A stretch of 64,000 nucleotides of DNA from Patescibacteria group bacterium (GTDB lineage Bacteria; Patescibacteriota; Patescibacteriia; Patescibacteriales; JBAZCA01), in NCBI GenBank assembly GCA_041671125.1, contig JBAZCA010000001.1:72120-136119 (forward strand). The letters run 5' to 3'. This document shows, piece by piece, positions 48,911 to 59,911 of the stretch (positions are counted from its first letter, which is position 1; each line of letters starts with the position of its first letter). A program made the position numbers and the translations under genes. The notes beneath the pieces were generated by a model. That model was not told where the DNA came from, did no database searches, and saw only the letters and a program-made list of their open reading frames with translations.

Positions 48911-51148
48911 ATGAAATTAATCATCGTTGAGTCGCCAACCAAGGCCAAAACCATTTCCAAATTCATTTCCAAAGACTATAAGGTTGAGTCTTCTTTCGGG
49001 CATATTCGCGACCTGCCAAAAAGCGAAATGGGAATTGATATTGAAAACGATTTTACGCCCGAATACGTAATTCCGCTAAAAAGCCGGAAAACCGTAGCTA
49101 ACCTAAAGGCTTTGGCTAAAAAAGCGGAAAAAATTATCCTGGCCTCGGACGAAGACCGGGAAGGAGAAGCGATTGCCTGGCATTTAGCCGAAGCGCTGAA
49201 GCTTAATAAAAGCCAGACCCAACGGATTGTTTTCCATGAAATTACCAAGCCAGCCATACTTAAAGCCATTGAAAATCCCCGGGAGATCAATAGCCACCTC
49301 GTTGACGCCCAGCAGGCGCGCCGGGTTTTAGATCGCCTCGTCGGCTACGAGCTTTCGCCCTTTTTATGGAAAAAAGTCGCTCGCGGACTATCGGCCGGCC
49401 GGGTGCAATCGGTGGCCGTCCGGTTAATCGTTGAACGGGAACGCGAAATTAAAGCTTTTAAAGCCGAAGAATACTGGAGCGTCTCAGCCCTCCTGGCCCG
49501 GACCAAAGAAAAAGATTCCCAATTTGAAACCAGGCTCCATAAAATAAACGGCAAAACCGTTGAAAAACTCCAGATAAAAAATGAAGTTGAGGCCGATAAA
49601 ATCTTATCCGACCTTAAAGGCGCGGAATACAAGGTCGCGGAAGTCGTAAAAAAAGAAGGAACAAAAAACCCTCCCCGGCCGTTTACTACTTCCACCCTCC
49701 AGCAAACTGCCAACCGCTGGCTCGGATTCTCCGCCAAGCAGACCATGACCCTAGCTCAAAGGCTCTACGAAACCGGCCTTATTACTTACATGCGTACCGA
49801 TTCGGTAAACCTCTCGGAAAAATTCCTCGCCGACGCCGGAGTTTACCTTAATAACGCTTTAGGCGGAGAATACGCGCTTAAAACTCCGAACCGCTACAAA
49901 ACAAAAAGCAAAGGCGCCCAGGAAGCCCATGAGGCTATCCGGCCGACCGAAGCGGCCGATGACCCTGAATCCGTAAAAGACAAGCTGGAGTCCGGCCAGT
50001 ACCGGCTCTATAAACTGATCTGGCAAAGATCAATCGCCTCGCAGATGCCGCCAGCCAAGGTTGACGCTACGACCATAGACGTTGACGCGGAAAAAGACGG
50101 CCGAGCCGACTACCAATTCCGGGCGACCGGCCAGGTAATAAAATTTGACGGTTATTTAAAAATTTATCCGGAGAAAAGCGCCGAAATTGAATTGCCAGAA
50201 GTGGAAGTTGAAGAAGCGCTTGATCTTATAAAACTAAGTGGCGAAGAACATTTTACTAAGCCGCCGGCCCGCTACTCGGACGCCGGACTGGTTAAAGTTT
50301 TAGAAAAATACGGTATCGGCCGGCCGTCCACTTACGCCCCGACGATCGCGACGATTGAGACGCGGAATTACATGGAGCGGGACGAAAATAAAAAATTAAA
50401 GCCGACTGATATCGCTTTCGTAGTAAACGACCTTTTGGTCGCCCATTTTCCCAATATCGTTGACTTTCAGTTTACGGCCGGCATGGAAAACAATCTTGAT
50501 GAAATTGCCGAAGGGCGGCAGAAATGGCAGCCGGTGATAGGAGAATTTTATGTTCCTTTCCATGATAATTTAATAAAAAAGCAGGACGAACTGAAAAAAT
50601 CCGACATCATCCCCGAAGAAAAATCCGAGGAGGTCTGCGAAAAATGCGGCTCGGCCATGATCATTAAAACCGGACGCTGGGGAAAATATCTTGCCTGTTC
50701 CAATTTTCCGGAATGTAAAAATATCAAATCATTGCCTAAAGCGGGCGTAACCGCCGATCCCGAGACGGAAGCAAAGCTAAAAGCGCTTCAGGAAAAATAC
50801 AAGGACGAAGTTTGCGAAAAATGCGGCTCAGCGATGGTTATAAAAAACGGCCGCTTTGGACCGTTTTTAGCCTGCTCCGGCTATCCGAAATGCAAAAACA
50901 TAAAAAGCATTACTGAAAATTCCGGCTCTACCGGAATAAAATGCCCTGTCTGCGGAGAGGGGGAAATTGTCATGAAGCGAAGCCGACGCGGCCCCTTTTA
51001 TGCCTGCAACCGCTACCCGGACTGCAAAACTTCTTTTTCTTCTAAACCCACCGGCGAAAAATGCCCGGACTGCGGCGCGCTTCTTCTAGAAGCAAAAGAC
51101 GGCGGAGTTAAATGTTCGGCTAAAGGTTGCGGGTATAAGACCGCGTAG
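48911..51148 (+). CDS. topA: DNA topoisomerase I (four C-terminal zinc ribbons)
   Basis: MKLIIVESPTKAKTI (Toprim). ITYMRTDS active-site Tyr region. Four C-x2-C...C-x4/5-C fingers. ATG 48911 preferred over TTG 48887. The stop TAG lies inside a REP stem. Confidence 0.93.
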   Translation: MKLIIVESPTKAKTISKFISKDYKVESSFGHIRDLPKSEMGIDIENDFTPEYVIPLKSRKTVANLKALAKKAEKIILASDEDREGEAIAWHLAEALKLNKSQTQRIVFHEITKPAILKAIENPREINSHLVDAQQARRVLDRLVGYELSPFLWKKVARGLSAGRVQSVAVRLIVEREREIKAFKAEEYWSVSALLARTKEKDSQFETRLHKINGKTVEKLQIKNEVEADKILSDLKGAEYKVAEVVKKEGTKNPPRPFTTSTLQQTANRWLGFSAKQTMTLAQRLYETGLITYMRTDSVNLSEKFLADAGVYLNNALGGEYALKTPNRYKTKSKGAQEAHEAIRPTEAADDPESVKDKLESGQYRLYKLIWQRSIASQMPPAKVDATTIDVDAEKDGRADYQFRATGQVIKFDGYLKIYPEKSAEIELPEVEVEEALDLIKLSGEEHFTKPPARYSDAGLVKVLEKYGIGRPSTYAPTIATIETRNYMERDENKKLKPTDIAFVVNDLLVAHFPNIVDFQFTAGMENNLDEIAEGRQKWQPVIGEFYVPFHDNLIKKQDELKKSDIIPEEKSEEVCEKCGSAMIIKTGRWGKYLACSNFPECKNIKSLPKAGVTADPETEAKLKALQEKYKDEVCEKCGSAMVIKNGRFGPFLACSGYPKCKNIKSITENSGSTGIKCPVCGEGEIVMKRSRRGPFYACNRYPDCKTSFSSKPTGEKCPDCGALLLEAKDGGVKCSAKGCGYKTA

Positions 51149-51173
51149 AGACGCGATTAATCGCGTCTCTACG
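51144..51173. repeat. REP hairpin a (GTAGAGACGC family)
   Basis: cgtagagacgcg-attaat-cgcgtctctacg. Contains the topA stop codon (51146-48). Confidence 0.9.
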
Positions 51174-51253
51174 GATGTAATTTTACCGTTTCGTCCGGAC
51201 GCAATCATCCGCACCGCGCGCGCGTCATCCCGCGGCGCAACCCGATTAACCGC

Positions 51254-51282
51254 GTAGAGACGCCCCGTCGGGGCGTCTCTAC
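51254..51282. repeat. REP hairpin b
   Basis: gtagagacgcccc-g-t-c-ggggcgtctctac. Confidence 0.9.
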
Positions 51283-51293
51283 AAAATGCGTCT

Positions 51294-54218
51294 TTACCTT
51301 TTCGCTCCTGAGTAAGCAATCGCTCTCACAATATCCCAGGCCATCGCCGATTTCGGCGCGTAACCGTAGATGTTTTTGAAGAATTGGATGGATTTTTTCT
51401 CTGAGTTCAGATTTCTATTTGTTGGCCTGAGGCCATAGGAAATAACGGCAATGGCGTTTTGGTCGCGTGGGTTATTCTTGTCCGGCAGTCTCAGGTAAAT
51501 CTTTTTGAACGCGGCCGAGGCATTAGCCTCGGTTTTTTCGTTCTTTTGGGCGGGCCATCGGCCGTTAGCGATTTTAATTATGTCCTGCCAGTCAATTTCA
51601 GTGGCCGGGTTCCGGCCGTAGGCCGATTTAAACGAGTTTACTACCCCTGAGCGCTCGCCCGAGCCGAGGATTTTAGTGGTGTCCGTGCCATTGGTGATAA
51701 AATTGGTTAATACATCTTTCTTGGCGGCGACTATCTCTTTGGCCTCGGACATTAGTTTTTCCAGCGTAGAGATGCCCCGCCGGGGCGTCTCTACGCTGTT
51801 TTGCCGGGTTGCTGTTTTATTCTCCTGATTATCACTAACATCACTTCCCTCACTATCATCTCCTGCCGCGTCATCACCCGGGCTGGTATCGTTATTACTG
51901 TCATTGCCAGTATTGGCAGTGGCGCTGTTGCTATTTTGGCTATTCAGTAAATAGACCGGAATTGTATTGCAGTCCCGGGTATAGTTAAACGTGTTGGAAT
52001 TGGTAGTATTGCCGTTATTATCCACGGCTATGACATACCAACTATGGGAACCGCAGGATAGGTTCTGACCCGGGGTTTGGGAGGCGGCAATATTGGAGAT
52101 ATTGTCAGAGTCCAGGGTATTGTCTATGTAGAGCTGGTATTTAGCTATTCCTGATTCCGTGTCAGACGAGGCGTTCCAGCTGAGGGTCGGGCGGGAGTCG
52201 GAGTTAACCGTATTATTGGCTGGCGAAGAGGCAGTAAAACTCGCCGGGCTGGTTATATCTTTTTCCAGTTCAAATGTATGGGTAGAATAGCCGCCGGAGT
52301 AGGTGAATTGGACAATGCCCGAGGAGTCGGAGAGGCAGGTCAGGTTGGTGCCGTTTCCGTAACTGGTTTGGCAGGTGGTAGCGCCATAACCGGTGATGGC
52401 AGTCGTAGTCGCCGTATTGTCAATCTTGAACGTGTAGTAGCTATCCGGGGCTAAATCGCCAATGGTGTAAACCGTAGAGGTGGCGTGGGTATTTCCCGCT
52501 CCCTCGGTTGAGGTCGCCGTCCAGGATTTATTCTTGTCGCCCGCGGTTTCCCAGGTATTAATATTTAAATCCATGAATGCCGAGGTGGAGGCGGTGTAGT
52601 ACCCGCCTCCGGCGGGTACTACCGAGAAGTTAGAGGTAGCAATGGTGTCAGCGGTGGTAGTGGCGACGAGAGCCCGGTATTTGCCGTTAGAATATATTCG
52701 GACCGAGCCGGTTTGGGGGATAGCGTTAGAGCCCACGGTATATGGCGGTTGGTATTCGTAAGCCCCAATGTCGGGAGTGCCGTAGATGGGGTTGCCGGCG
52801 TAGTCGGTGGTGAGGGAGACGTCGGTGCCAGAGTCGATGGCGGGGGAGGTGGGGTCGGGGATGTAGGTGCCAGTTTGGAAGAGGGGGTCAGATGTCATTT
52901 CGTTTGTTGACGTAACAGTCCCTGATGTCTTCGCGGTATTACCATAAAACCCATTATAATCTACCGTGGGCGTTCCGGCAACCTGTTGAATCCCCATCGC
53001 TAAGTTCATAAATTCATTATTCTTGACCACCAGAGTTCCCTGAGCATAGATACCCTTTCCGTCTTTTGTCGCTTCATCGTAAAAAACATTATTAATGATA
53101 CTGCACGTTGCGTTGGTTCTACAGGCAACCCCAAACTTCGCACTTGCTATGGTGTTAAATATATTATGGCTTATGTTTGCGGTAACAGTGCCGGTCCCTA
53201 CCGTGTCAATAATATGATCCGTGATACCATTAAAGATTGACCGTTTGACTGTTAGCGCAACCGCCGCCCCTTGTATTTCTATACCTGCCGCTCCTGTATT
53301 GGTTGCATTTCCGTTGAGCGTCAATCCGTTGATGGTCATGCTTCCACCATTCAAGTTGATATATTTAGTAGTTGTCCCAACGGGAATATTGGATATTGTT
53401 ACTGTATTTATGGTCAGATTAACATTATTGTTTCCTGTGACCAATATTATTGGATTAGTTAGTCCACCACCTGTTTTATTAATAGTAAGACGGTTATATG
53501 TCGCGTTTATAGTTCCTGCCACATCGGTATGAAATACATCCTCAAGCGTTGTGCCACTGATCGTAATATCGTTGGCAGTAAGGGTTGTTGTGCTATCCGA
53601 TGCTACGGTATTAACCCCTTGGGAATTTCCCGTGAACGATCCTGTATTAATGACCGCTGTTCCCCCGTGCATTGAAAAGCCATCATCGGTGTTATTATTT
53701 GCGCTTATATTGTTAAACGTGACAGTTGAGTTCCCTTCCATCTGGAACCCTTGGTTCCCCATAGAATTGCACGATACATTACTCACTGTTCCAATGGATG
53801 CTCCCCTAAACTGTATTCCATCAGTGGTCATATTGGTTATAGTGCCATTCATAATAACTATACCCGTGCGACCATTTATATCAATTCCTGTAATTGTATT
53901 TACACCATCTCCACTGATTGCAAATCCGCCAAGGTTAATCGTGATGTCATTTCCCCCCACATTCAAGACATCCCCCGCATTGGTACACGAGAGATTTCCA
54001 GCCAGTGTATATGAGGAGGTTACGGTATCACCACAGTTACAGGCAGTCACTCCACCACAATTAGCCGCACTCGCCTTCCCCACTCCCAAAACAAAAAAAC
54101 TTCCCAAAAATAACAGGAAGAAAAAAACAAATCTGGAAAATTTTAGATTTTGAGGTTTAGTTAAGAGAGAGAGAGAGAGAGAGACGGCTTTCATGTTTTT
54201 GTATTTATCCCGACGCAT
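51294..54218 (-). CDS. Large secreted right-handed beta-helix (PbH1-type) surface protein with conserved C-terminal domain
   Basis: Signal/TM segment FVFFFLLFLGSFFVLGV. Many G-x-N/T-rich ~22-aa turns (IMNGTITN, FNNISANNN, ...). Low-complexity linker. The start could be ATG 54218 or 54194. An in-frame REP lies at 51765-96. Confidence 0.7.
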   Translation of the reverse strand: MRRDKYKNMKAVSLSLSLLTKPQNLKFSRFVFFFLLFLGSFFVLGVGKASAANCGGVTACNCGDTVTSSYTLAGNLSCTNAGDVLNVGGNDITINLGGFAISGDGVNTITGIDINGRTGIVIMNGTITNMTTDGIQFRGASIGTVSNVSCNSMGNQGFQMEGNSTVTFNNISANNNTDDGFSMHGGTAVINTGSFTGNSQGVNTVASDSTTTLTANDITISGTTLEDVFHTDVAGTINATYNRLTINKTGGGLTNPIILVTGNNNVNLTINTVTISNIPVGTTTKYINLNGGSMTINGLTLNGNATNTGAAGIEIQGAAVALTVKRSIFNGITDHIIDTVGTGTVTANISHNIFNTIASAKFGVACRTNATCSIINNVFYDEATKDGKGIYAQGTLVVKNNEFMNLAMGIQQVAGTPTVDYNGFYGNTAKTSGTVTSTNEMTSDPLFQTGTYIPDPTSPAIDSGTDVSLTTDYAGNPIYGTPDIGAYEYQPPYTVGSNAIPQTGSVRIYSNGKYRALVATTTADTIATSNFSVVPAGGGYYTASTSAFMDLNINTWETAGDKNKSWTATSTEGAGNTHATSTVYTIGDLAPDSYYTFKIDNTATTTAITGYGATTCQTSYGNGTNLTCLSDSSGIVQFTYSGGYSTHTFELEKDITSPASFTASSPANNTVNSDSRPTLSWNASSDTESGIAKYQLYIDNTLDSDNISNIAASQTPGQNLSCGSHSWYVIAVDNNGNTTNSNTFNYTRDCNTIPVYLLNSQNSNSATANTGNDSNNDTSPGDDAAGDDSEGSDVSDNQENKTATRQNSVETPRRGISTLEKLMSEAKEIVAAKKDVLTNFITNGTDTTKILGSGERSGVVNSFKSAYGRNPATEIDWQDIIKIANGRWPAQKNEKTEANASAAFKKIYLRLPDKNNPRDQNAIAVISYGLRPTNRNLNSEKKSIQFFKNIYGYAPKSAMAWDIVRAIAYSGAKR
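51765..51796. repeat. REP hairpin c, in-frame inside the beta-helix protein gene
   Basis: gcgtagagatgccccgccggggcgtctctacgc. Translated as ...SVETPRRGISTLE.... Confidence 0.9.
54164..54184. repeat. (AG)10 dinucleotide microsatellite within the 5' coding region
   Basis: agagagagagagagagagaga encodes SLSLSL, between the candidate start codons and the signal-peptide core. Confidence 0.95.
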
Positions 54219-54263: not shown

Positions 54264-54291
54264 GTAGAGACGCATTGCAATGCGTCTCTAC
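54264..54291. repeat. REP hairpin d (45 nt downstream of the RAYT stop)
   Basis: gtagagacgca-ttgcaa-tgcgtctctac. Confidence 0.9.
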
Positions 54292-54336: not shown

Positions 54337-54957
54337 TCACATCCAAATATTCTCCACGTTATTCCTGTCACGTTCCCACATCGCCGGATTGTTAATAATA
54401 TATTCCCGGATTCGGTTTAAAGATTCGTCGTTCCTGATAATGTGATCGTAAAAACGGGATTGCCAGGCGAAATTAGGATATTCGGATTTCCAAATTTTTT
54501 TCGTGCAGACCGATTTAATTTGATTTATAATTGAACCCAATGAATTTGGTTTCCATTGCGGATTATATCCGCCACGTTTCAATTTATCATCAACCGCAAC
54601 CATCGCGGTGGTAGAGACGCCCCGGCGGGGCGTCTCTACCGTCGCGCGGGGCGTCTCTACGGATGATTTGATCTTGCACAAAATTTCCAAAATTGCGTGC
54701 AAATGATTCGGCATAATTATCCATTCATCCAAAATTACATTCTGACGAATTATCGGCGTTTGCGACAATTCCTCCTGAACGATTTTCCCGATATCATTTA
54801 AACTCATTTTTCCGTTTTTAACCTCTCCAAAATAATGTTCTCTGTCTTTCGTGCAAATCGTTATGAAATATACGCCGTTTTGACTATAATCATAGCCTTC
54901 CAATCTGGCGGATTTGATGCGAAATTTATTTTTAAATCTTTGTGATATTGGCAACAT
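54337..54957 (-). CDS. REP-associated tyrosine transposase (RAYT; IS200/IS605 Y1 HUH family)
   Basis: YDYSQNGVYFITICTKDREHYFG. HUH motif IMPNHLHAIL. Tyr helix WQSRFYDHIIRNDESLNRIREYI. Interrupted in-frame by REP sequence. Confidence 0.8.
   Translation of the reverse strand: MLPISQRFKNKFRIKSARLEGYDYSQNGVYFITICTKDREHYFGEVKNGKMSLNDIGKIVQEELSQTPIIRQNVILDEWIIMPNHLHAILEILCKIKSSVETPRATVETPRRGVSTTAMVAVDDKLKRGGYNPQWKPNSLGSIINQIKSVCTKKIWKSEYPNFAWQSRFYDHIIRNDESLNRIREYIINNPAMWERDRNNVENIWM
54611..54660. repeat. REP hairpin e plus an extra half-site, in-frame inside the RAYT gene
   Basis: gtagagacgccccggcggggcgtctctac followed by cgtcgcgc-ggggcgtctctac. Translated as SVETPRATVETPRRGVSTTA. Confidence 0.9.
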
Positions 54958-55270: not shown

Positions 55271-55365
55271 ATGGTACGAGTCCAGCAGTCCATTAGCCGA
55301 ATAGTCAGACTGTCAGACTACGGACTAATTGACTAACTGACTAACTGACTATTAGACTATTTTGG

Positions 55366-55683
55366 CTAATCCGGATTTTCGTCAATCTCAATTTTAATTC
55401 CTCCGATTTTTTTGGCGACAAAATTGTAGATCGCGGCGATTACGTAACCGATAATCCAGCCGAACGCGCCGCAAACGACAAAAGTCAGGACGCCAAAAAG
55501 GATGCCGGCGGCGACATGGAAAAAGACGACCGCCGCGGCTGATCCGGCGAAACTCGCCTGAGCTATTATATTGCCGCCGACTAAAATCGCGAGAACTATG
55601 CTTACGAAAAACCCGATAGTCCCGTAAACCGCGCCGATAATTTTAGCCAGGCTCGCGTTGTTGATTTTTTTTATTTCAGTCAT
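55366..55683 (-). CDS. Small integral membrane protein (3 TM)
   Basis: 105 aa, hydrophobic throughout. Confidence 0.5.
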   Translation of the reverse strand: MTEIKKINNASLAKIIGAVYGTIGFFVSIVLAILVGGNIIAQASFAGSAAAVVFFHVAAGILFGVLTFVVCGAFGWIIGYVIAAIYNFVAKKIGGIKIEIDENPD

Positions 55684-55763
55684 AAATCAGACAATAGACA
55701 TCAGTAAATAGTAAATAGAAACTTTATAACTCTATTGACTATTGTCTATTTACTGTTTACTAA

Positions 55764-58238
55764 TTAAAAGTCTCTTACTCTGGCCCCGAACTTATCCCCA
55801 AGATGTTTTACCAGCGCGTTCTGCGCTTCTTCAACCTCTTCGGACTTCATGGTTCGGTCGGCCTGATAAATAATATGGAACGCGAGGCTCTTCTTTCCGA
55901 TTTCCAGCTTTTCTCCCTCGTAGGCATCAAACACTTCAGCGCTCTTAACGAGTTCGGAAAATTTTTCTATCTCTTCTTTTATATCATTATACAATATTTT
56001 CGCGTCAAGGACAAAGGCTAAGTCGCGGATTATTGGCGGATATTTTTCAAACTCCGAATAACCGGCTGGCCGGGGGAAAAATTGCTCCAGCTCCAGAAGG
56101 TCAAATTCGGCGATGGCTGTTTCTTTTTTTACGCCAACGCGTTTCGCGATCCGGGAATCAAGACATCCGACAATTCCGATCCGGACGCCTTCGGCTGAAA
56201 TTCCGGCCGCGCGAACGCCATCCATCCAGCCCGGTTTTTCATCAAGCAGGCTAAACTTAACTTTCAGCCCAAGGCTTTCAAAGAGAAAGCCGGTTATTGA
56301 TTTTACTTTCAAAAAAACTTCATCCGCTTCGCCGCCGGCAACCGCTATCCCTAACCGCTCAAACTGCGCCGGAAGCTTATCTTTTCCCAAAGCGTCCCTG
56401 TCAATTTCTCCGGGCCGGTTAAAATAAACCGTGCCGATTTCAAAAAGTCCGATCCGATCCCGGCGAGCCTGGTTCTTTTTTATGTTTTCTATAAGATTGG
56501 GGGCGAGCGCCGGCGTTAAAAAGTTCATGGTCTCTGCTATCGGGTTTAAAAGTTTTATCGCGCTCCCGGCGTCAATCTGGAGCTTTGAGAGCTGTTCCTC
56601 GCCTACGAAAGAATAGTTATAGCTTTCGGTCAGACGGGCGCCAAAAGCCAGGATCTCCCTGATCTTTTTTTTCATGTCCGGCGCTTTTTCGCGCGGCATC
56701 CGGCCAAGACTTATTTCCGGCATGTCCGGCGTAATTTTATTGTAGCCGTAAATCCGCGCCACTTCCTCAACAACATCCTCTCTGATACTTACGTCTTTTC
56801 CGGCTCGCCAAGTCGGGATTGTTAAAGAAAATGAGCTATTTTTCTTCGCGATGCCGAAACCGAGGCTCTTTAATATCCTCGTAACTTCCTGTTCCGGAAT
56901 ACCTTCCCCGATCCGCTCCTCAATCCAGCTTAACTTTATTTCCAGCGGCCCGGTAAACTGCTGAAAATTATTTTCATCCGTTGTTTCGCTTATCACTCTC
57001 GCCGAAGGGCAGATTCGCTTTATCAATTCCGTAGCGCGGTAAAGGGCGATTGCGGCCAGATTGGGGTCAAGTGATTTTTCAAAGCGCATTGATGATTCGC
57101 TCCGCACTCCCAGGTAGCGGGAAGTTTTTCTTATGGAAGCAAAATCAAAATTGGCCGATTCAAGGACTATAGAATCAGTTTCTTCCGATATTTCGCTTAA
57201 AACCCCGCCCATTACCCCGGCAATCGCGATTGGCTTTTCCTTATCGGCGATTACGAGCGTTTCTTCGTTTAATTCCCGCTCTTTCCCGTCAAGCGTCGTT
57301 ATCGCCTCGCCTTTCTTCGCCCGTCTCACGTTTATATCGCATTCAAAAATTTCTTTTTTATTTAATTCCGGCTCCAGTTTCGCGAGGTCAAAAGCGTGCA
57401 GAGGCTGGCCAACGTCAAGCATGACGTAATTCGTCGCGTCAACGATATTATTAATCGGCCGGACTCCGGCGGCGATAAGCCTTTGGCTAAGCCATTCGGG
57501 CGAAGGTCCGATTTTAATTCCGCCCATGGCAAGCGCCATGTACCTCGGCGCCAGCTTATTATCTTCAACCGCCACCCTGATGCGGGCAAGCTTATCATCG
57601 GTTTTTATTTTCAATTTGCCGGATTTTTGCCCGGACAATGCCGCGTTAATTTCTTCGGCTTTTTTCGTTAGCCGGGAATCTAAAAACGCGGCGATTTCCC
57701 TCGCCACCCCGAGATGCGACCAAAGATCCGGCCGGTTGGTTATGGATTTATTATCTACCTCAAAAATCACGTCGCTTAGCCCAAGGACTTCAACGAGCGG
57801 TTTTCCGGTTTTAGTATTTTTATCTAAAATCATGATGCCCGCGTGATCATCCCCGAGACCGAGCTCGTCCGGAGCGCAGAGCATGCCCTGGGATTTTACT
57901 CCCCGGACTTCCACCTCTTTAATTTCAAGGCCGTTAGGTAAAACCGCTCCGATAAGAGCGAGCGGAACCATCTGTCCGGCTTCTATGTTCGGCGCGCCGC
58001 AGACGATTTCCAATTTTTCTTTTCCGGTATCAACCAAAGCCAACCGCAAACGGTCGGCGTCGGGATGCTTTTTTACCTCAATAATTTCCCCGGCAATGAC
58101 GTTCTTAAACTTTTCGGCCTGACTGGAAACACCTTCAATCTCAACCGTATGCAAAGTTAAAAGCCGCGCCAGCTCGCCGGGCGTAATATTTTTCGGAATT
58201 TCAACGTAATCTTTTAGCCAGTTTAGGGATAGATACAT
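55764..58238 (-). CDS. pheT: Phenylalanine--tRNA ligase beta subunit
   Basis: MYLSLNWLKDYVEIP, tRNA-binding OB domain (HPDADRL), B3/4, B5 and FDX-ACB-like C-terminus. ATG 58238 preferred over the track start 58277. Confidence 0.93.
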   Translation of the reverse strand: MYLSLNWLKDYVEIPKNITPGELARLLTLHTVEIEGVSSQAEKFKNVIAGEIIEVKKHPDADRLRLALVDTGKEKLEIVCGAPNIEAGQMVPLALIGAVLPNGLEIKEVEVRGVKSQGMLCAPDELGLGDDHAGIMILDKNTKTGKPLVEVLGLSDVIFEVDNKSITNRPDLWSHLGVAREIAAFLDSRLTKKAEEINAALSGQKSGKLKIKTDDKLARIRVAVEDNKLAPRYMALAMGGIKIGPSPEWLSQRLIAAGVRPINNIVDATNYVMLDVGQPLHAFDLAKLEPELNKKEIFECDINVRRAKKGEAITTLDGKERELNEETLVIADKEKPIAIAGVMGGVLSEISEETDSIVLESANFDFASIRKTSRYLGVRSESSMRFEKSLDPNLAAIALYRATELIKRICPSARVISETTDENNFQQFTGPLEIKLSWIEERIGEGIPEQEVTRILKSLGFGIAKKNSSFSLTIPTWRAGKDVSIREDVVEEVARIYGYNKITPDMPEISLGRMPREKAPDMKKKIREILAFGARLTESYNYSFVGEEQLSKLQIDAGSAIKLLNPIAETMNFLTPALAPNLIENIKKNQARRDRIGLFEIGTVYFNRPGEIDRDALGKDKLPAQFERLGIAVAGGEADEVFLKVKSITGFLFESLGLKVKFSLLDEKPGWMDGVRAAGISAEGVRIGIVGCLDSRIAKRVGVKKETAIAEFDLLELEQFFPRPAGYSEFEKYPPIIRDLAFVLDAKILYNDIKEEIEKFSELVKSAEVFDAYEGEKLEIGKKSLAFHIIYQADRTMKSEEVEEAQNALVKHLGDKFGARVRDF

Positions 58239-59881: not shown

Positions 59882-59911
59882 GGTAGAGACGAAAAATTTT
59901 GCGTCTCTACC
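59882..59911. repeat. REP hairpin g
   Basis: ggtagagacg-aaaaatttt-gcgtctctacc. The helicase stop codon TAG (59909-59907, minus strand) lies in its arm. Confidence 0.9.

What the first reader, a model, noticed from the sequence alone, without database searches (positions are those of the whole stretch)
54604..54662. REP hairpins inserted in-frame inside coding sequences, including the RAYT gene itself
One and a half REP units sit inside the RAYT ORF, between the HUH motif and the catalytic-Tyr helix. They are translated as SVETPRATVETPRRGVSTTA without breaking the frame. A second REP (51765-51796) is in-frame in the 974-aa beta-helix protein (SVETPRRGISTLE). It lies exactly at the linker before that protein's conserved C-terminal domain. 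A transposase carrying its own substrate hairpin in its mRNA and protein suggests self-targeting, autoregulation through RNA structure, or tolerated 'REP-encoded peptide' insertions.
Basis: seen in the sequence. Interest (0 to 1): 0.65.

Follow-up and report, generated by a model that had tools for sequence, protein, structure and literature searches.

The report
REP hairpin inside its own transposase gene
A small palindromic repeat (REP) really does sit in frame inside the gene of the enzyme thought to move it, but this is the published hallmark of one RAYT subfamily (TnpA-Y1 subclass 2.4), so this window adds a new Patescibacteria example rather than a new phenomenon.

Summary
The 206-aa RAYT gene (54337-54957, minus strand) contains a perfect 29-nt palindrome, GTAGAGACGCCCCGNCGGGGCGTCTCTAC (54611-54639), plus a 21-nt half copy (54640-54660). 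They are translated as VETPRAT-VETPRRGVST. The same repeat lies in frame in the 974-aa beta-helix protein (51766-51794). Further copies sit beside both genes.

The interpretation needs correcting, because this is not a one-off insertion. Nearly all of 55 aligned homologues, and 57 of 80 genomic loci from at least 12 phyla, carry a GTAG-footed hairpin in the same loop after the HUH motif. The identical DNA palindrome is read in three different frame configurations. What is kept is therefore the DNA, not the peptide.

Quentin, Siguier, Chandler and Fichant (2018, PMC6006769) already described this. [quoted passage not shown] The window's protein has the NHLH, WQ and YIINNP motifs and fits that subclass.

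AlphaFold puts the REP-encoded residues in a disordered loop. A relative that is 93% identical at the DNA level lacks the half copy. Twenty-three intact homologues lack a footed hairpin altogether. The best reading is a tolerated, repeatedly renewed REP in a permissive loop. Autoregulation remains untested.

The parts
54337..54957 (-). RAYT / TnpA-REP gene, 206 aa. HUH = PNHLH (residues 83-87, about 54697-54711). GTAG-recognition block = FAWQSRFYDHIIR. Catalytic Tyr motif = YIINNP (residues 186-191, Y186 at 54400-54402).
   Evidence: ORF and translation. Pfam Y1_Tnp, weak. NCBIfam REP_Tyr_transpos 67 bits against a cut-off of 80. The profile of A1 hits 4ER8. Foldseek top hit is 4ER8. About 8000 homologues.
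54611..54639 (-). Internal full 'double-foot' REP: a perfect 29-nt palindrome, GTAGAGACGCCCCGCCGGGGCGTCTCTAC on the coding strand. It encodes VETPRRGVST (residues 107-116).
   Evidence: Folding. Conserved in homologues. AF2 pLDDT is below 50 over residues 98-127.
54640..54660 (-). 21-nt half REP (5' arm only: GTAGAGACGCCCCGCGCGACG) encoding VETPRAT (residues 100-106). It is an in-frame indel, present in P0001 (95% identical) and absent in L081/P0002.
   Evidence: DNA alignment A3 shows a 21-nt gap plus a 3-nt gap at the two hairpin borders. Protein sequences.
54264..54291 (.). Flanking REP (28 nt, loop ATTGCAAT), 45 nt downstream of the RAYT stop and upstream of the beta-helix gene.
   Evidence: The orthologous position in L081 carries a REP with a different inner stem.
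51294..54218 (-). 974-aa beta-helix protein with a signal-peptide-like N-terminus and a conserved C-terminal domain. It is the host of the second in-frame REP.
   Evidence: The L081 orthologue is 90% identical over the C-terminal 543 residues.
51766..51794 (-). In-frame intragenic REP (one stem mismatch) encoding VETPRRGIST, in the low-complexity linker before the C-terminal domain.
   Evidence: Conserved as VETPRRGVST in L081. No equivalent peptide aligns at this position in the 64%-identical homologues P0121 and P0122.
51254..51297 (.). Full REP (51254-51282) plus a degenerate half REP (51288-51297). The GTAA of the half REP on the minus strand supplies the TAA stop of the beta-helix gene (51294-51296).
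51145..51172 (.). REP (loop GATTAATC) whose GTAG foot supplies the TAG stop of topA (51146-51148).
59883..59910 (.). REP (one mismatch) whose GTAG foot on the minus strand supplies the TAG stop (59907-59909) of a 1011-aa UvrD / PD-(D/E)XK helicase-nuclease gene.

Best explanation
This locus is a REPtron of the TnpA-Y1 subclass 2.4 / RAYT group 4 type in a Patescibacteria genome. It consists of a single-copy HUH/Y1 nuclease gene together with its cognate 'double-foot' REPs (5' GTAG ... CTAC 3').

How it most likely works:
- The enzyme is expected to bind REP hairpins in single-stranded DNA through the GTAG foot, and to cut and rejoin next to them. This is inferred from E. coli TnpA-REP (PDB 4ER8).
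- One REP lies inside the enzyme's own gene, in the loop between the HUH strand (beta3) and helix alphaC. It can persist there because the loop is disordered and peripheral, so any in-frame REP-encoded peptide is tolerated.
- The site behaves as a permanent REP 'nest'. Copies are renewed, partly duplicated and lost by events at the hairpin borders, and selection only filters for an open frame.
- The copy in the beta-helix protein is an ordinary intragenic REP in a low-complexity linker.
- The copies that overlap stop codons are ordinary GTAG-REP behaviour.

Shown here: family membership by motifs and fold; conservation of the DNA element irrespective of reading frame; the disordered loop; indel polymorphism at the hairpin borders.

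Inferred: the enzymatic activity, and the mechanism by which copies are renewed.
For: Published description:
- Subclass 2.4 has motifs NH[IFV]H / WQ / YIxNNP, a median length of 194 aa, a variable beta3:alphaC insertion, and double-foot REPs 'inserted in tnpAREP' in frame between HuH and Y (PMC6006769).
- Its Table S1 lists GTAGAGACGCACGGCCGTGCGTCTCTAC for a subclass 2.4 gene.

Fit of the window protein:
- It has NHLH, FAWQ and YIINNP in 206 aa.
- Its predicted fold matches 4ER8 best.
- The GTAG-contact residues align: WQ..F[WY][ED]H..R.

Family-wide presence:
- VETPRRGVST, or the same stem read in another frame, appears in almost all of 55 homologues.
- 57 of 80 loci have an internal footed hairpin. 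38 have a GT[AG]G...C[TC]AC palindrome; 28 are perfect over 14 bp per arm or more and 32 over at least 13.
- Perfect hairpins occur at 3.17 per kb in this loop, against 0.08 per kb in the far flanks.

DNA rather than peptide is conserved:
- Identical palindromes are read as VETHRDASLQ, RRDAMHRVST or VETPRRGVST.
- Stem positions 5, 7 and 9-12 vary, and almost all changes keep Watson-Crick pairing.
- Stem type broadly tracks the protein clade, while the reading frame differs within clades.

Tolerance and turnover:
- pLDDT is below 50 for residues 98-127.
- A 93%-identical allele differs by 21-nt and 3-nt indels exactly at the hairpin borders.
- Tandem partial copies occur in P0003, P0005, P0014 and P0060.
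- The orthologous intergenic REP has a different but still perfect inner stem in L081.
- 23 of 80 homologues lack a footed hairpin, and nearly all loci keep HUH, WQ and the Y motif.

Intragenic copies are common for this REP:
- Only 10-12 of 121 exact copies found in metagenome contigs are inside RAYT genes.
- 47 of 83 copies away from contig ends lie in open frames of at least 30 codons on each side.
Against: - The position is remarkably constant across at least 12 phyla, and the palindromes are mostly perfect. A purely neutral passenger would not stay this way unless renewal is frequent.
- In 11 of 30 loci with at least 15 kb of sequence, the internal REP is the only footed hairpin present. 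A nearby donor for renewal is therefore not evident there.
- No activity of any subclass 2.4 enzyme was tested here.
- The NCBIfam REP_Tyr_transpos score is below its cut-off (67 against 80).
- The window has no REP upstream of the RAYT start, so the gene is not flanked on both sides. L081 is flanked on both sides.
Confidence: 0.75

Rival explanations
1. The internal REP is a selected cis-acting element, not a passenger. The RAYT binds or cuts the hairpin in its own gene as ssDNA, or the very stable mRNA hairpin throttles translation. Either would give autoregulation. Alternatively, the internal copy is a protected 'master copy' that keeps REP and enzyme specificity together.
For: - The location is the same in most family members across phyla.
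- The DNA palindrome is kept whatever the reading frame, with compensatory stem changes.
- Stem type co-varies with the protein clade.
- In 26 of 57 loci the internal REP is the only footed hairpin in the available sequence.
- The RNA hairpin folds at -43 kcal/mol inside the coding region.
- From memory: phiX174 gene A and pT181 repC are HUH enzymes whose nick site lies inside their own coding sequence.
Against: - 23 of 80 homologues have no footed hairpin, and nearly all loci keep the catalytic motifs.
- The distance from HUH to the hairpin varies from 6 to 37 codons, and from the hairpin to WQ from 27 to 85 codons. There is no fixed register.
- External, non-coding REPs are just as perfect.
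- Copy number, half copies and frame vary between close relatives.
- The authors who described the feature judged the loop to be peripheral.
Confidence: 0.18
2. The peptide VETPRRGVST is a functional protein motif of this family, for example a DNA-binding loop. Its palindromic coding sequence, and the genomic REPs, would then be secondary or coincidental.
For: V114 and S115 are nearly invariant in the alignment of the closest 55 homologues.
Against: - The same DNA palindrome encodes three unrelated peptides in different members: VETHRDASLQ, RRDAMHRVST and VETPRRGVST.
- Synonymous positions are fixed as required by base pairing.
- The segment is predicted to be disordered.
- Identical palindromes occur in intergenic DNA and in unrelated ORFs.
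Confidence: 0.02
3. The REP insertion has inactivated the RAYT, so the gene is a decaying pseudogene and the open frame is accidental.
For: The Pfam and NCBIfam scores are just below their cut-offs because the insert splits the domain. The window has no upstream flanking REP.
Against: - The ORF is full length, with HUH, WQ and YIINNP intact.
- Relatives that are 87-95% identical keep the frame despite indels, all of which are multiples of three.
- The core of the model has pLDDT above 90.
Confidence: 0.05

Closest known systems
TnpA-Y1 subclass 2.4 / RAYT group 4 REPtrons with REPs inserted inside tnpA-REP (Quentin, Siguier, Chandler, Fichant 2018, BMC Genomics 19:475; Bertels et al. 2017)
   Same: - HuH / WQ / YIxNNP motifs, and a length of about 200 aa.
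- A variable beta3:alphaC insertion.
- 'Double-foot' GTAG...CTAC REPs, one of them in frame inside the gene between HuH and Y.
- Few REP copies per genome.
- A scattered, multi-phylum distribution.
   Different: - The host is a Patescibacteria (CPR) genome. The paper names Cyanobacteria, Bacteroidetes and 'various phyla'.
- The HuH hydrophobic residue is L, rather than the I/F/V of the consensus.
- Points I did not find in the text or legends I read: the same palindrome is read in three frame configurations, indels cluster at the hairpin borders between near-identical alleles, and many loci have no other REP within 10 kb.
E. coli TnpA-REP / RAYT (subclass 2.2; PDB 4ER8) and its REP/BIME elements
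   Same: - The HUH/Y1 fold (best structural match).
- Conserved residues that contact the GTAG foot.
- REPs that start with GTAG and lie next to the gene.
   Different: - E. coli REPs are imperfect, bulged, single-foot hairpins. They are strictly extragenic relative to tnpA-REP and present in hundreds of copies.
- The loop after the HUH strand is short in E. coli.
- The NCBIfam equivalog cut-off is not reached here (67 against 80 bits).
Intragenic GTAG/CGTC REPs, and REP feet supplying TAG stop codons (Di Nocera, De Gregorio, Rocco 2013, BMC Genomics 14:522)
   Same: - In-frame REPs in linkers of unrelated proteins (here the beta-helix protein).
- GTAG feet providing stop codons (here topA and the UvrD-like helicase).
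- REPs lying between convergent genes.
   Different: In the passages I retrieved, that paper does not report REPs inside RAYT genes. A search of its text for 'within RAYT' returned nothing.
HUH replication initiators whose nick site lies in their own gene (phiX174 gene A, pT181 repC) - from memory, analogy only
   Same: An HUH enzyme has its DNA substrate hairpin or site embedded in its own coding sequence.
   Different: - Those sites are replication origins with a demonstrated function at a fixed position.
- Here no function is shown, the position within the loop floats, and the element is dispensable in many homologues.

Membership tests
TnpA-Y1 subclass 2.4 (RAYT group 4) | HuH motif NH[IFV]H | tested here: met
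   The window protein has PNHLH (residues 83-87). N and both H are invariant in A1. The middle residue is L rather than I/F/V, which is a conservative departure from the MEME consensus in Table 1 of PMC6006769.
TnpA-Y1 subclass 2.4 (RAYT group 4) | W motif = WQ, and Y motif = YIxNNP | tested here: met
   FAWQSRFYDH (W165, Q166) and REYIINNP (Y186, N190, P191). These residues are invariant or nearly invariant in A1.
TnpA-Y1 subclass 2.4 (RAYT group 4) | A protein of about 194 aa with a variable-length, variable-sequence insertion between beta3 and alphaC, and no C-terminal tail domain | tested here: met
   The protein is 206 aa. Homologues range from 158 to 354 aa, with nearly all length variation in this loop or in wrongly extended N-termini. 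AF2 gives strand 85-92, a disordered stretch 98-127 and helix 140-157.
TnpA-Y1 subclass 2.4 (RAYT group 4) | Canonical long or 'double-foot' REPs (5' GT[AG]G ... C[TC]AC 3') within about 1 kb of the gene | tested here: met
   A double-foot REP lies at 54264-54291, 45 nt downstream. None lies upstream in the window. The relative L081 has them on both sides.
TnpA-Y1 subclass 2.4 (RAYT group 4) | [quoted passage not shown] | tested here: met
   54611-54639 plus the half copy 54640-54660, with the frame open. The same is seen in 57 of 80 related loci.
TnpA-Y1 subclass 2.4 (RAYT group 4) | Assignment by the authors' own MCL clusters or subclass HMMs | not testable with these tools
   The subclass HMMs are not in any available library. 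The assignment rests on motifs and on REP type.
REP-associated tyrosine transposase, E. coli type (NCBIfam NF047646 equivalog; subclass 2.2) | Score above the curated equivalog cut-off | tested here: not met
   67.1 bits against a cut-off of 80. The match is split in two by the insert. The protein is related to this family but is not a member of the equivalog.
REP-associated tyrosine transposase, general (RAYT) | HUH/Y1 fold, and the residues that read the GTAG foot (W94, Q95, E100, H101, R104 of E. coli) | tested here: met
   The Foldseek top hit is 4ER8, E = 4.4e-6. The profile alignment pairs WQsRFyDHiiRn with WQPRFWEHAIRN. W, Q, H and R are identical and E is replaced by D.
REP-associated tyrosine transposase, general (RAYT) | Sequence-specific binding and cleavage of the cognate REP as ssDNA | not testable with these tools
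   This needs biochemistry.
IS200/IS605 TnpA (subclass 1.1) | Y motif Y---Q, multiple identical copies, subterminal hairpins at the IS ends, often with tnpB | tested here: not met
   The Y motif is YIINNP. There is one copy in the window and no tnpB-like neighbour. NCBIfam transpos_IS200 gives only 16-20 bits for close homologues.
Intragenic REP (Di Nocera 2013), for the beta-helix protein copy | A REP wholly inside a real ORF, frame kept, in a linker or loop, and absent from more distant homologues | tested here: met
   51766-51794 lies in a 974-aa ORF, in the low-complexity linker. It is present in the 90%-identical orthologue. No equivalent peptide aligns there in the 64%-identical P0121 and P0122.

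The most novel reading that the evidence does not exclude
The internal REP of subclass 2.4 RAYT genes is not a tolerated passenger. It is a maintained cis-element: a 'safe-haven' master copy and/or an autoregulatory hairpin recognised by the enzyme it lies within.

This would explain three things:
- The DNA palindrome stays perfect, and at the same loop, across at least 12 phyla, whatever the reading frame.
- Its stem co-varies with the protein clade.
- In many loci it is the only REP within 10 kb on either side.
Probability: 0.17. Interest if true: 0.6.

Novelty: new member of a known kind. Interest (0 to 1): 0.25.

Why it matters
As it stands, the finding is a further example, from a Patescibacteria genome, of a published oddity: RAYT subclass 2.4 genes carry their own REP in frame. 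It helps annotation in three ways:
- Peptides such as VETPRRGVST, xRDAxxxVST and RDAPxGRLY in predicted proteins are translated REPs.
- Predicted N-terminal extensions containing them are usually wrong start calls.
- Stop codons may be donated by REP feet.

The comparative data gathered here sharpen an open question about why group 4 RAYTs persist. These data are the same palindrome read in three frame configurations, the border indels between near-identical alleles, and the internal copy often being the only local copy. If the internal hairpin were shown to be functional, it would be a transposase-family counterpart of HUH initiators that carry their nick site in their own gene.

Tried and rejected
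- A single lineage-specific insertion: rejected, because the feature is family-wide.
- This palindrome lives mainly inside RAYT genes: rejected. Only 10-12 of 121 exact copies found in metagenome contigs are in RAYT genes.
- Literature string searches for the peptide and DNA motifs (VETPRRGVST, RDAINRVST, GTAGAGACGC and others) found nothing relevant. The key paper turned up only through a RAYT classification search.
- The look-up of encoding contigs for P0001, the 95% relative, returned no record. Synteny could therefore be compared only with L081.
- My first motif regex missed 40 of 80 loci. After loosening it, 78 were recovered. L006 and L078 stayed unparsed and may be frameshifted.
- No attempt was made to test transcription termination or frameshifting at the hairpin. 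No run of T follows it.

Full report

Yes. The sequence at 54604-54662 contains a perfect 29-nt palindrome, GTAGAGACGCCCCGGCGGGGCGTCTCTAC, at 54611-54639. It is followed on the + strand by a second copy of the right arm ending at 54660.

The 10-nt core GTAGAGACGC occurs 15 times in the window with at most one mismatch, against 1.44 expected; none of 100 shuffles reached 15. The hits pair up into hairpins at these positions:
- 51145-51172
- 51254-51282, plus a half copy at 51288-51297
- 51766-51794
- 54264-54291
- 54611-54639, plus a half copy
- 59883-59910

The minus-strand ORF 54337-54957 (206 aa) reads straight through the internal copy...MPNHLHAILEILCKIKSS VETPRAT VETPRRGVST TAMV.... The element folds very stably. 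As DNA it gives -25.6 kcal/mol (z = -6.35) and as RNA -43.4 kcal/mol (z = -6.95); no shuffle folded as well.

The 974-aa beta-helix ORF (51294-54218, minus strand) reads through 51766-51794 as SVETPRRGISTLE.

**2. What the gene is**

The ORF is an HUH/Y1 protein.
- Pfam Y1_Tnp matches weakly (22.8 bits against 23), because the insert splits the domain.
- NCBIfam REP_Tyr_transpos gives 67 bits, below its 80-bit equivalog cut-off.
- A profile of the family hits only E. coli TnpA-REP (4ER8) among solved structures. It aligns the HUH strand and the block WQsRFyDHiiRn...YI..NP with WQPRFWEHAIRN...YIYINP.
- An AlphaFold model built on 56 sequences has mean pLDDT 77.9, with 110 residues at 90 or above. 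Its best Foldseek match is 4ER8 (E = 4.4e-6), followed by the ISDra2, IS608 and IS200 transposases.
- The catalytic and GTAG-reading residues are all present: H85, H87, W165, Q166, D171, H172, R175, Y186 and N190.

**3. The internal hairpin is a family trait, not a local accident**

About 8000 database proteins match at E <= 1e-5. Their annotated sources include Patescibacteria, Bacteroidota, Chloroflexi and Cyanobacteria.

In an alignment of 55 of them, almost every sequence has VETPRRGVST, or GRDALQCVST, at the same place just after the HUH strand. V114 and S115 are nearly invariant. Nearly all length variation sits in this loop.

A scan of one genome per species returned 80 loci from at least 12 phyla. 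At the DNA level:
- 57 of 80 genes carry a GT[AG]G-footed hairpin with a perfect stem of at least 8 bp between PNHxH and WQ.
- 38 carry a GT[AG]G...C[TC]AC palindrome. Twenty-eight of these are perfect over 14 bp per arm or more, and 32 over at least 13.
- Perfect hairpins with a stem of at least 10 bp occur at 3.17 per kb in this loop. The rate is 0.41 per kb in the rest of the gene, 0.54 per kb in the 500-bp flanks and 0.08 per kb further away.

**4. DNA is conserved, not peptide**

The same palindrome is translated in three frame configurations in different members:
- 29-nt forms read as VETPRRGVST.
- 28-nt forms read as xRDAMHRVST or CRDVACNVST.
- The same 28-nt forms also read as VETHRDASLQ or VETLHATSLR.

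For example, GTAGAGACGTTGCATGCAACGTCTCTAC reads RRDVACNVST in L018 and L011 but VETLHATSL in L033 and L061.

Stem positions 5, 7 and 9-12 vary (A:T, G:C and T:A). Positions 1-8 are Watson-Crick in all 38 sequences. Positions 9-12 have one or two non-Watson-Crick pairs each among the 38.

On a neighbour-joining tree of the core protein, stem type (GTAGAGACGC, GTAGAGACGT, GTAGGGGCG, GTAGGGAC) broadly follows the clades, whereas frame differs within clades.

Orthologues do carry an equivalent peptide, but they carry it because they carry the hairpin.

**5. This is already in the literature**

Quentin, Siguier, Chandler and Fichant (2018, BMC Genomics 19:475, PMC6006769) classified the TnpA-Y1 family. 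For subclass 2.4, which corresponds to group 4 of Bertels et al., they describe the following:
- motifs NH[IFV]H, WQ and YIxNNP
- a median length of 194 aa
- a variable beta3:alphaC insertion
- canonical long and 'double foot' REPs (5' GT[AG]G and 3' C[TC]AC)

Their Table S1 lists GTAGAGACGCACGGCCGTGCGTCTCTAC for a subclass 2.4 gene.

Bertels et al. 2017 (PMC5581495) report group 4 as common in Cyanobacteria, Chlorobia and Caldilineae, with only about 14 copies of the flanking 16-mers per replicon. That agrees with the low REP density I see.

Di Nocera et al. 2013 (PMC3733652) had already described in-frame intragenic REPs in linkers, and GTAG feet that donate TAG stop codons.

The window's protein (NHLH, WQ, YIINNP, 206 aa, double-foot REPs, internal REP) fits subclass 2.4 on every feature I could test. 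The authors' own HMMs are not available to me.

**6. Local dynamics**

The closest relatives show what is fixed and what is not.
- P0001 (95% identical) has the same one-and-a-half copies. P0002 (87% identical) has a single copy.
- The DNA alignment with the P0002 locus (L081) is 93% identical. It differs by a 21-nt gap, which is exactly the half REP at 54640-54660; by a 3-nt gap at the other hairpin border; and by the central base of the palindrome. All of these preserve the frame.
- Other homologues carry one to several tandem partial copies, for example VETRG-VETPRRGVST, VETPRQG x2 + VETPRRGVST, and the QTPRCDVSDD repeats in P0060.
- L081 has REPs on both sides of the gene, and one in the orthologous beta-helix gene.
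- The intergenic REP at the orthologous position downstream of the RAYT has a different, yet still perfect, inner stem. It is GTAGAGACGCATTGCAATGCGTCTCTAC in the window and GTAGAGACGAGGCATTGCCTCGTCTCTAC in L081.

Together these point to turnover in place at REP sites.

**7. Where the peptide sits**

In the model, residues 98-127 have pLDDT below 50 and no secondary structure. They lie between the HUH strand (85-92) and helix 140-157. This is consistent with a permissive, disordered loop, as Quentin et al. proposed.

**8. The second intragenic copy and the other copies**

- In the beta-helix protein the REP lies in a hypervariable, low-complexity (D/S/N/G-rich) linker, immediately before the strongly conserved C-terminal domain of about 150 aa.
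- It is present in the 90%-identical orthologue. No equivalent peptide aligns at that position in the 64%-identical homologues P0121 and P0122.
- The window copy has one stem mismatch, which changes V to I.
- Three further copies overlap stop codons: the topA TAG at 51146-51148; the TAA of the beta-helix gene at 51294-51296, from a degenerate half REP; and the TAG of a UvrD / PD-(D/E)XK helicase-nuclease gene at 59907-59909.

**9. How general are in-frame copies?**

- Of 121 copies, only 10-12 lie inside RAYT genes.
- Of 83 copies away from contig ends, 47 lie in frames that stay open for at least 30 codons on both sides. These read VETPRRGVST 25 times, and xRDAPxGRLY in most of the others.
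- Six donate a TAG stop to an ORF of at least 80 codons, and 30 are intergenic.

In-frame residence is therefore common for this REP type, and the RAYT gene is one host among many.

**10. Mechanism and rivals**

Best supported (confidence about 0.75): this is a subclass 2.4 REPtron whose internal REP is tolerated in a disordered loop and continually renewed at a fixed 'nest', with selection acting only on frame.

Evidence against a required function:
- 23 of 80 homologues lack any footed hairpin, and nearly all loci keep the catalytic motifs.
- The hairpin's register within the loop floats: 6-37 codons from HUH and 27-85 codons to WQ.

What keeps a functional reading alive (confidence about 0.17):
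- The loop position is constant across phyla.
- The palindromes are mostly perfect.
- Stem type co-varies with the protein clade.
- In 11 of 30 loci with at least 15 kb of sequence, the internal REP is the only footed hairpin.

Other readings:
- The peptide-function reading is contradicted by the frame data.
- The pseudogene reading is contradicted by the intact motifs, the confident core of the model and the frame-preserving indels.

Enzymatic activity and the renewal mechanism are inferred from E. coli TnpA-REP. They are not shown here.

**11. Verdict**

However, the phenomenon is a published hallmark of a known RAYT subclass. The window adds a Patescibacteria member and some comparative detail. 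Interest is low to moderate.

Noticed in passing
window 54164-54184: A (TC)9 dinucleotide repeat (an AG run on the + strand) lies in frame (VSLSLSL), just after the probable start ATG (about 54194) of the secreted 974-aa beta-helix protein. The 90%-identical orthologue in L081 has only CTCTCTTTTTCTCTT at this place. This is a candidate slipped-strand phase-variation switch for a surface protein.
   Followed up: partly
window 51146-51148, 51294-51296, 59907-59909: REP feet donate stop codons. The GTAG foot gives the TAG of topA and the TAG of a 1011-aa UvrD / PD-(D/E)XK helicase-nuclease gene. A degenerate half REP (GTAA...) gives the TAA of the beta-helix gene.
   Followed up: yes
window 54264-54291 versus L081 10735-10763: The REP at the orthologous intergenic position downstream of the RAYT has a different inner stem and loop in two genomes whose RAYT genes are 93% identical. 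Both versions are perfect palindromes. This suggests in-place replacement, or evolution that preserves the palindrome.
   Followed up: partly
L082-L199 (metagenome contigs): The exact 29-nt palindrome occurs in at least 118 contigs from many environments, usually once per contig. More than half of the copies away from contig ends lie in open frames, giving VETPRRGVST or xRDAPxGRLY peptides in unrelated ORFs.
   Followed up: partly
P0002, P0005, P0008, P0009, P0018, P0083 (N-termini): Several database RAYT proteins have N-terminal extensions that are translated upstream REPs (for example MIVAVETPRRGVST..., ...DAPAGRLY...). These are probably wrong start-codon calls.
   Followed up: no
window 55290-55360 and 55674-55769: Dense short repeats (TGACTAAC / TAGTCAGAC-like) and a 38-nt imperfect inverted repeat lie in the spacers between small membrane-protein ORFs and pheT. 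They are unrelated to the REP family and their function is unknown.
   Followed up: no
window 51145-51282: Two REPs with different loops, 81 nt apart, lie between the convergent genes topA and the beta-helix gene. The arrangement resembles a REPIN or BIME. The 77-aa ORF across them (51086-51319, minus strand) is probably spurious.
   Followed up: no
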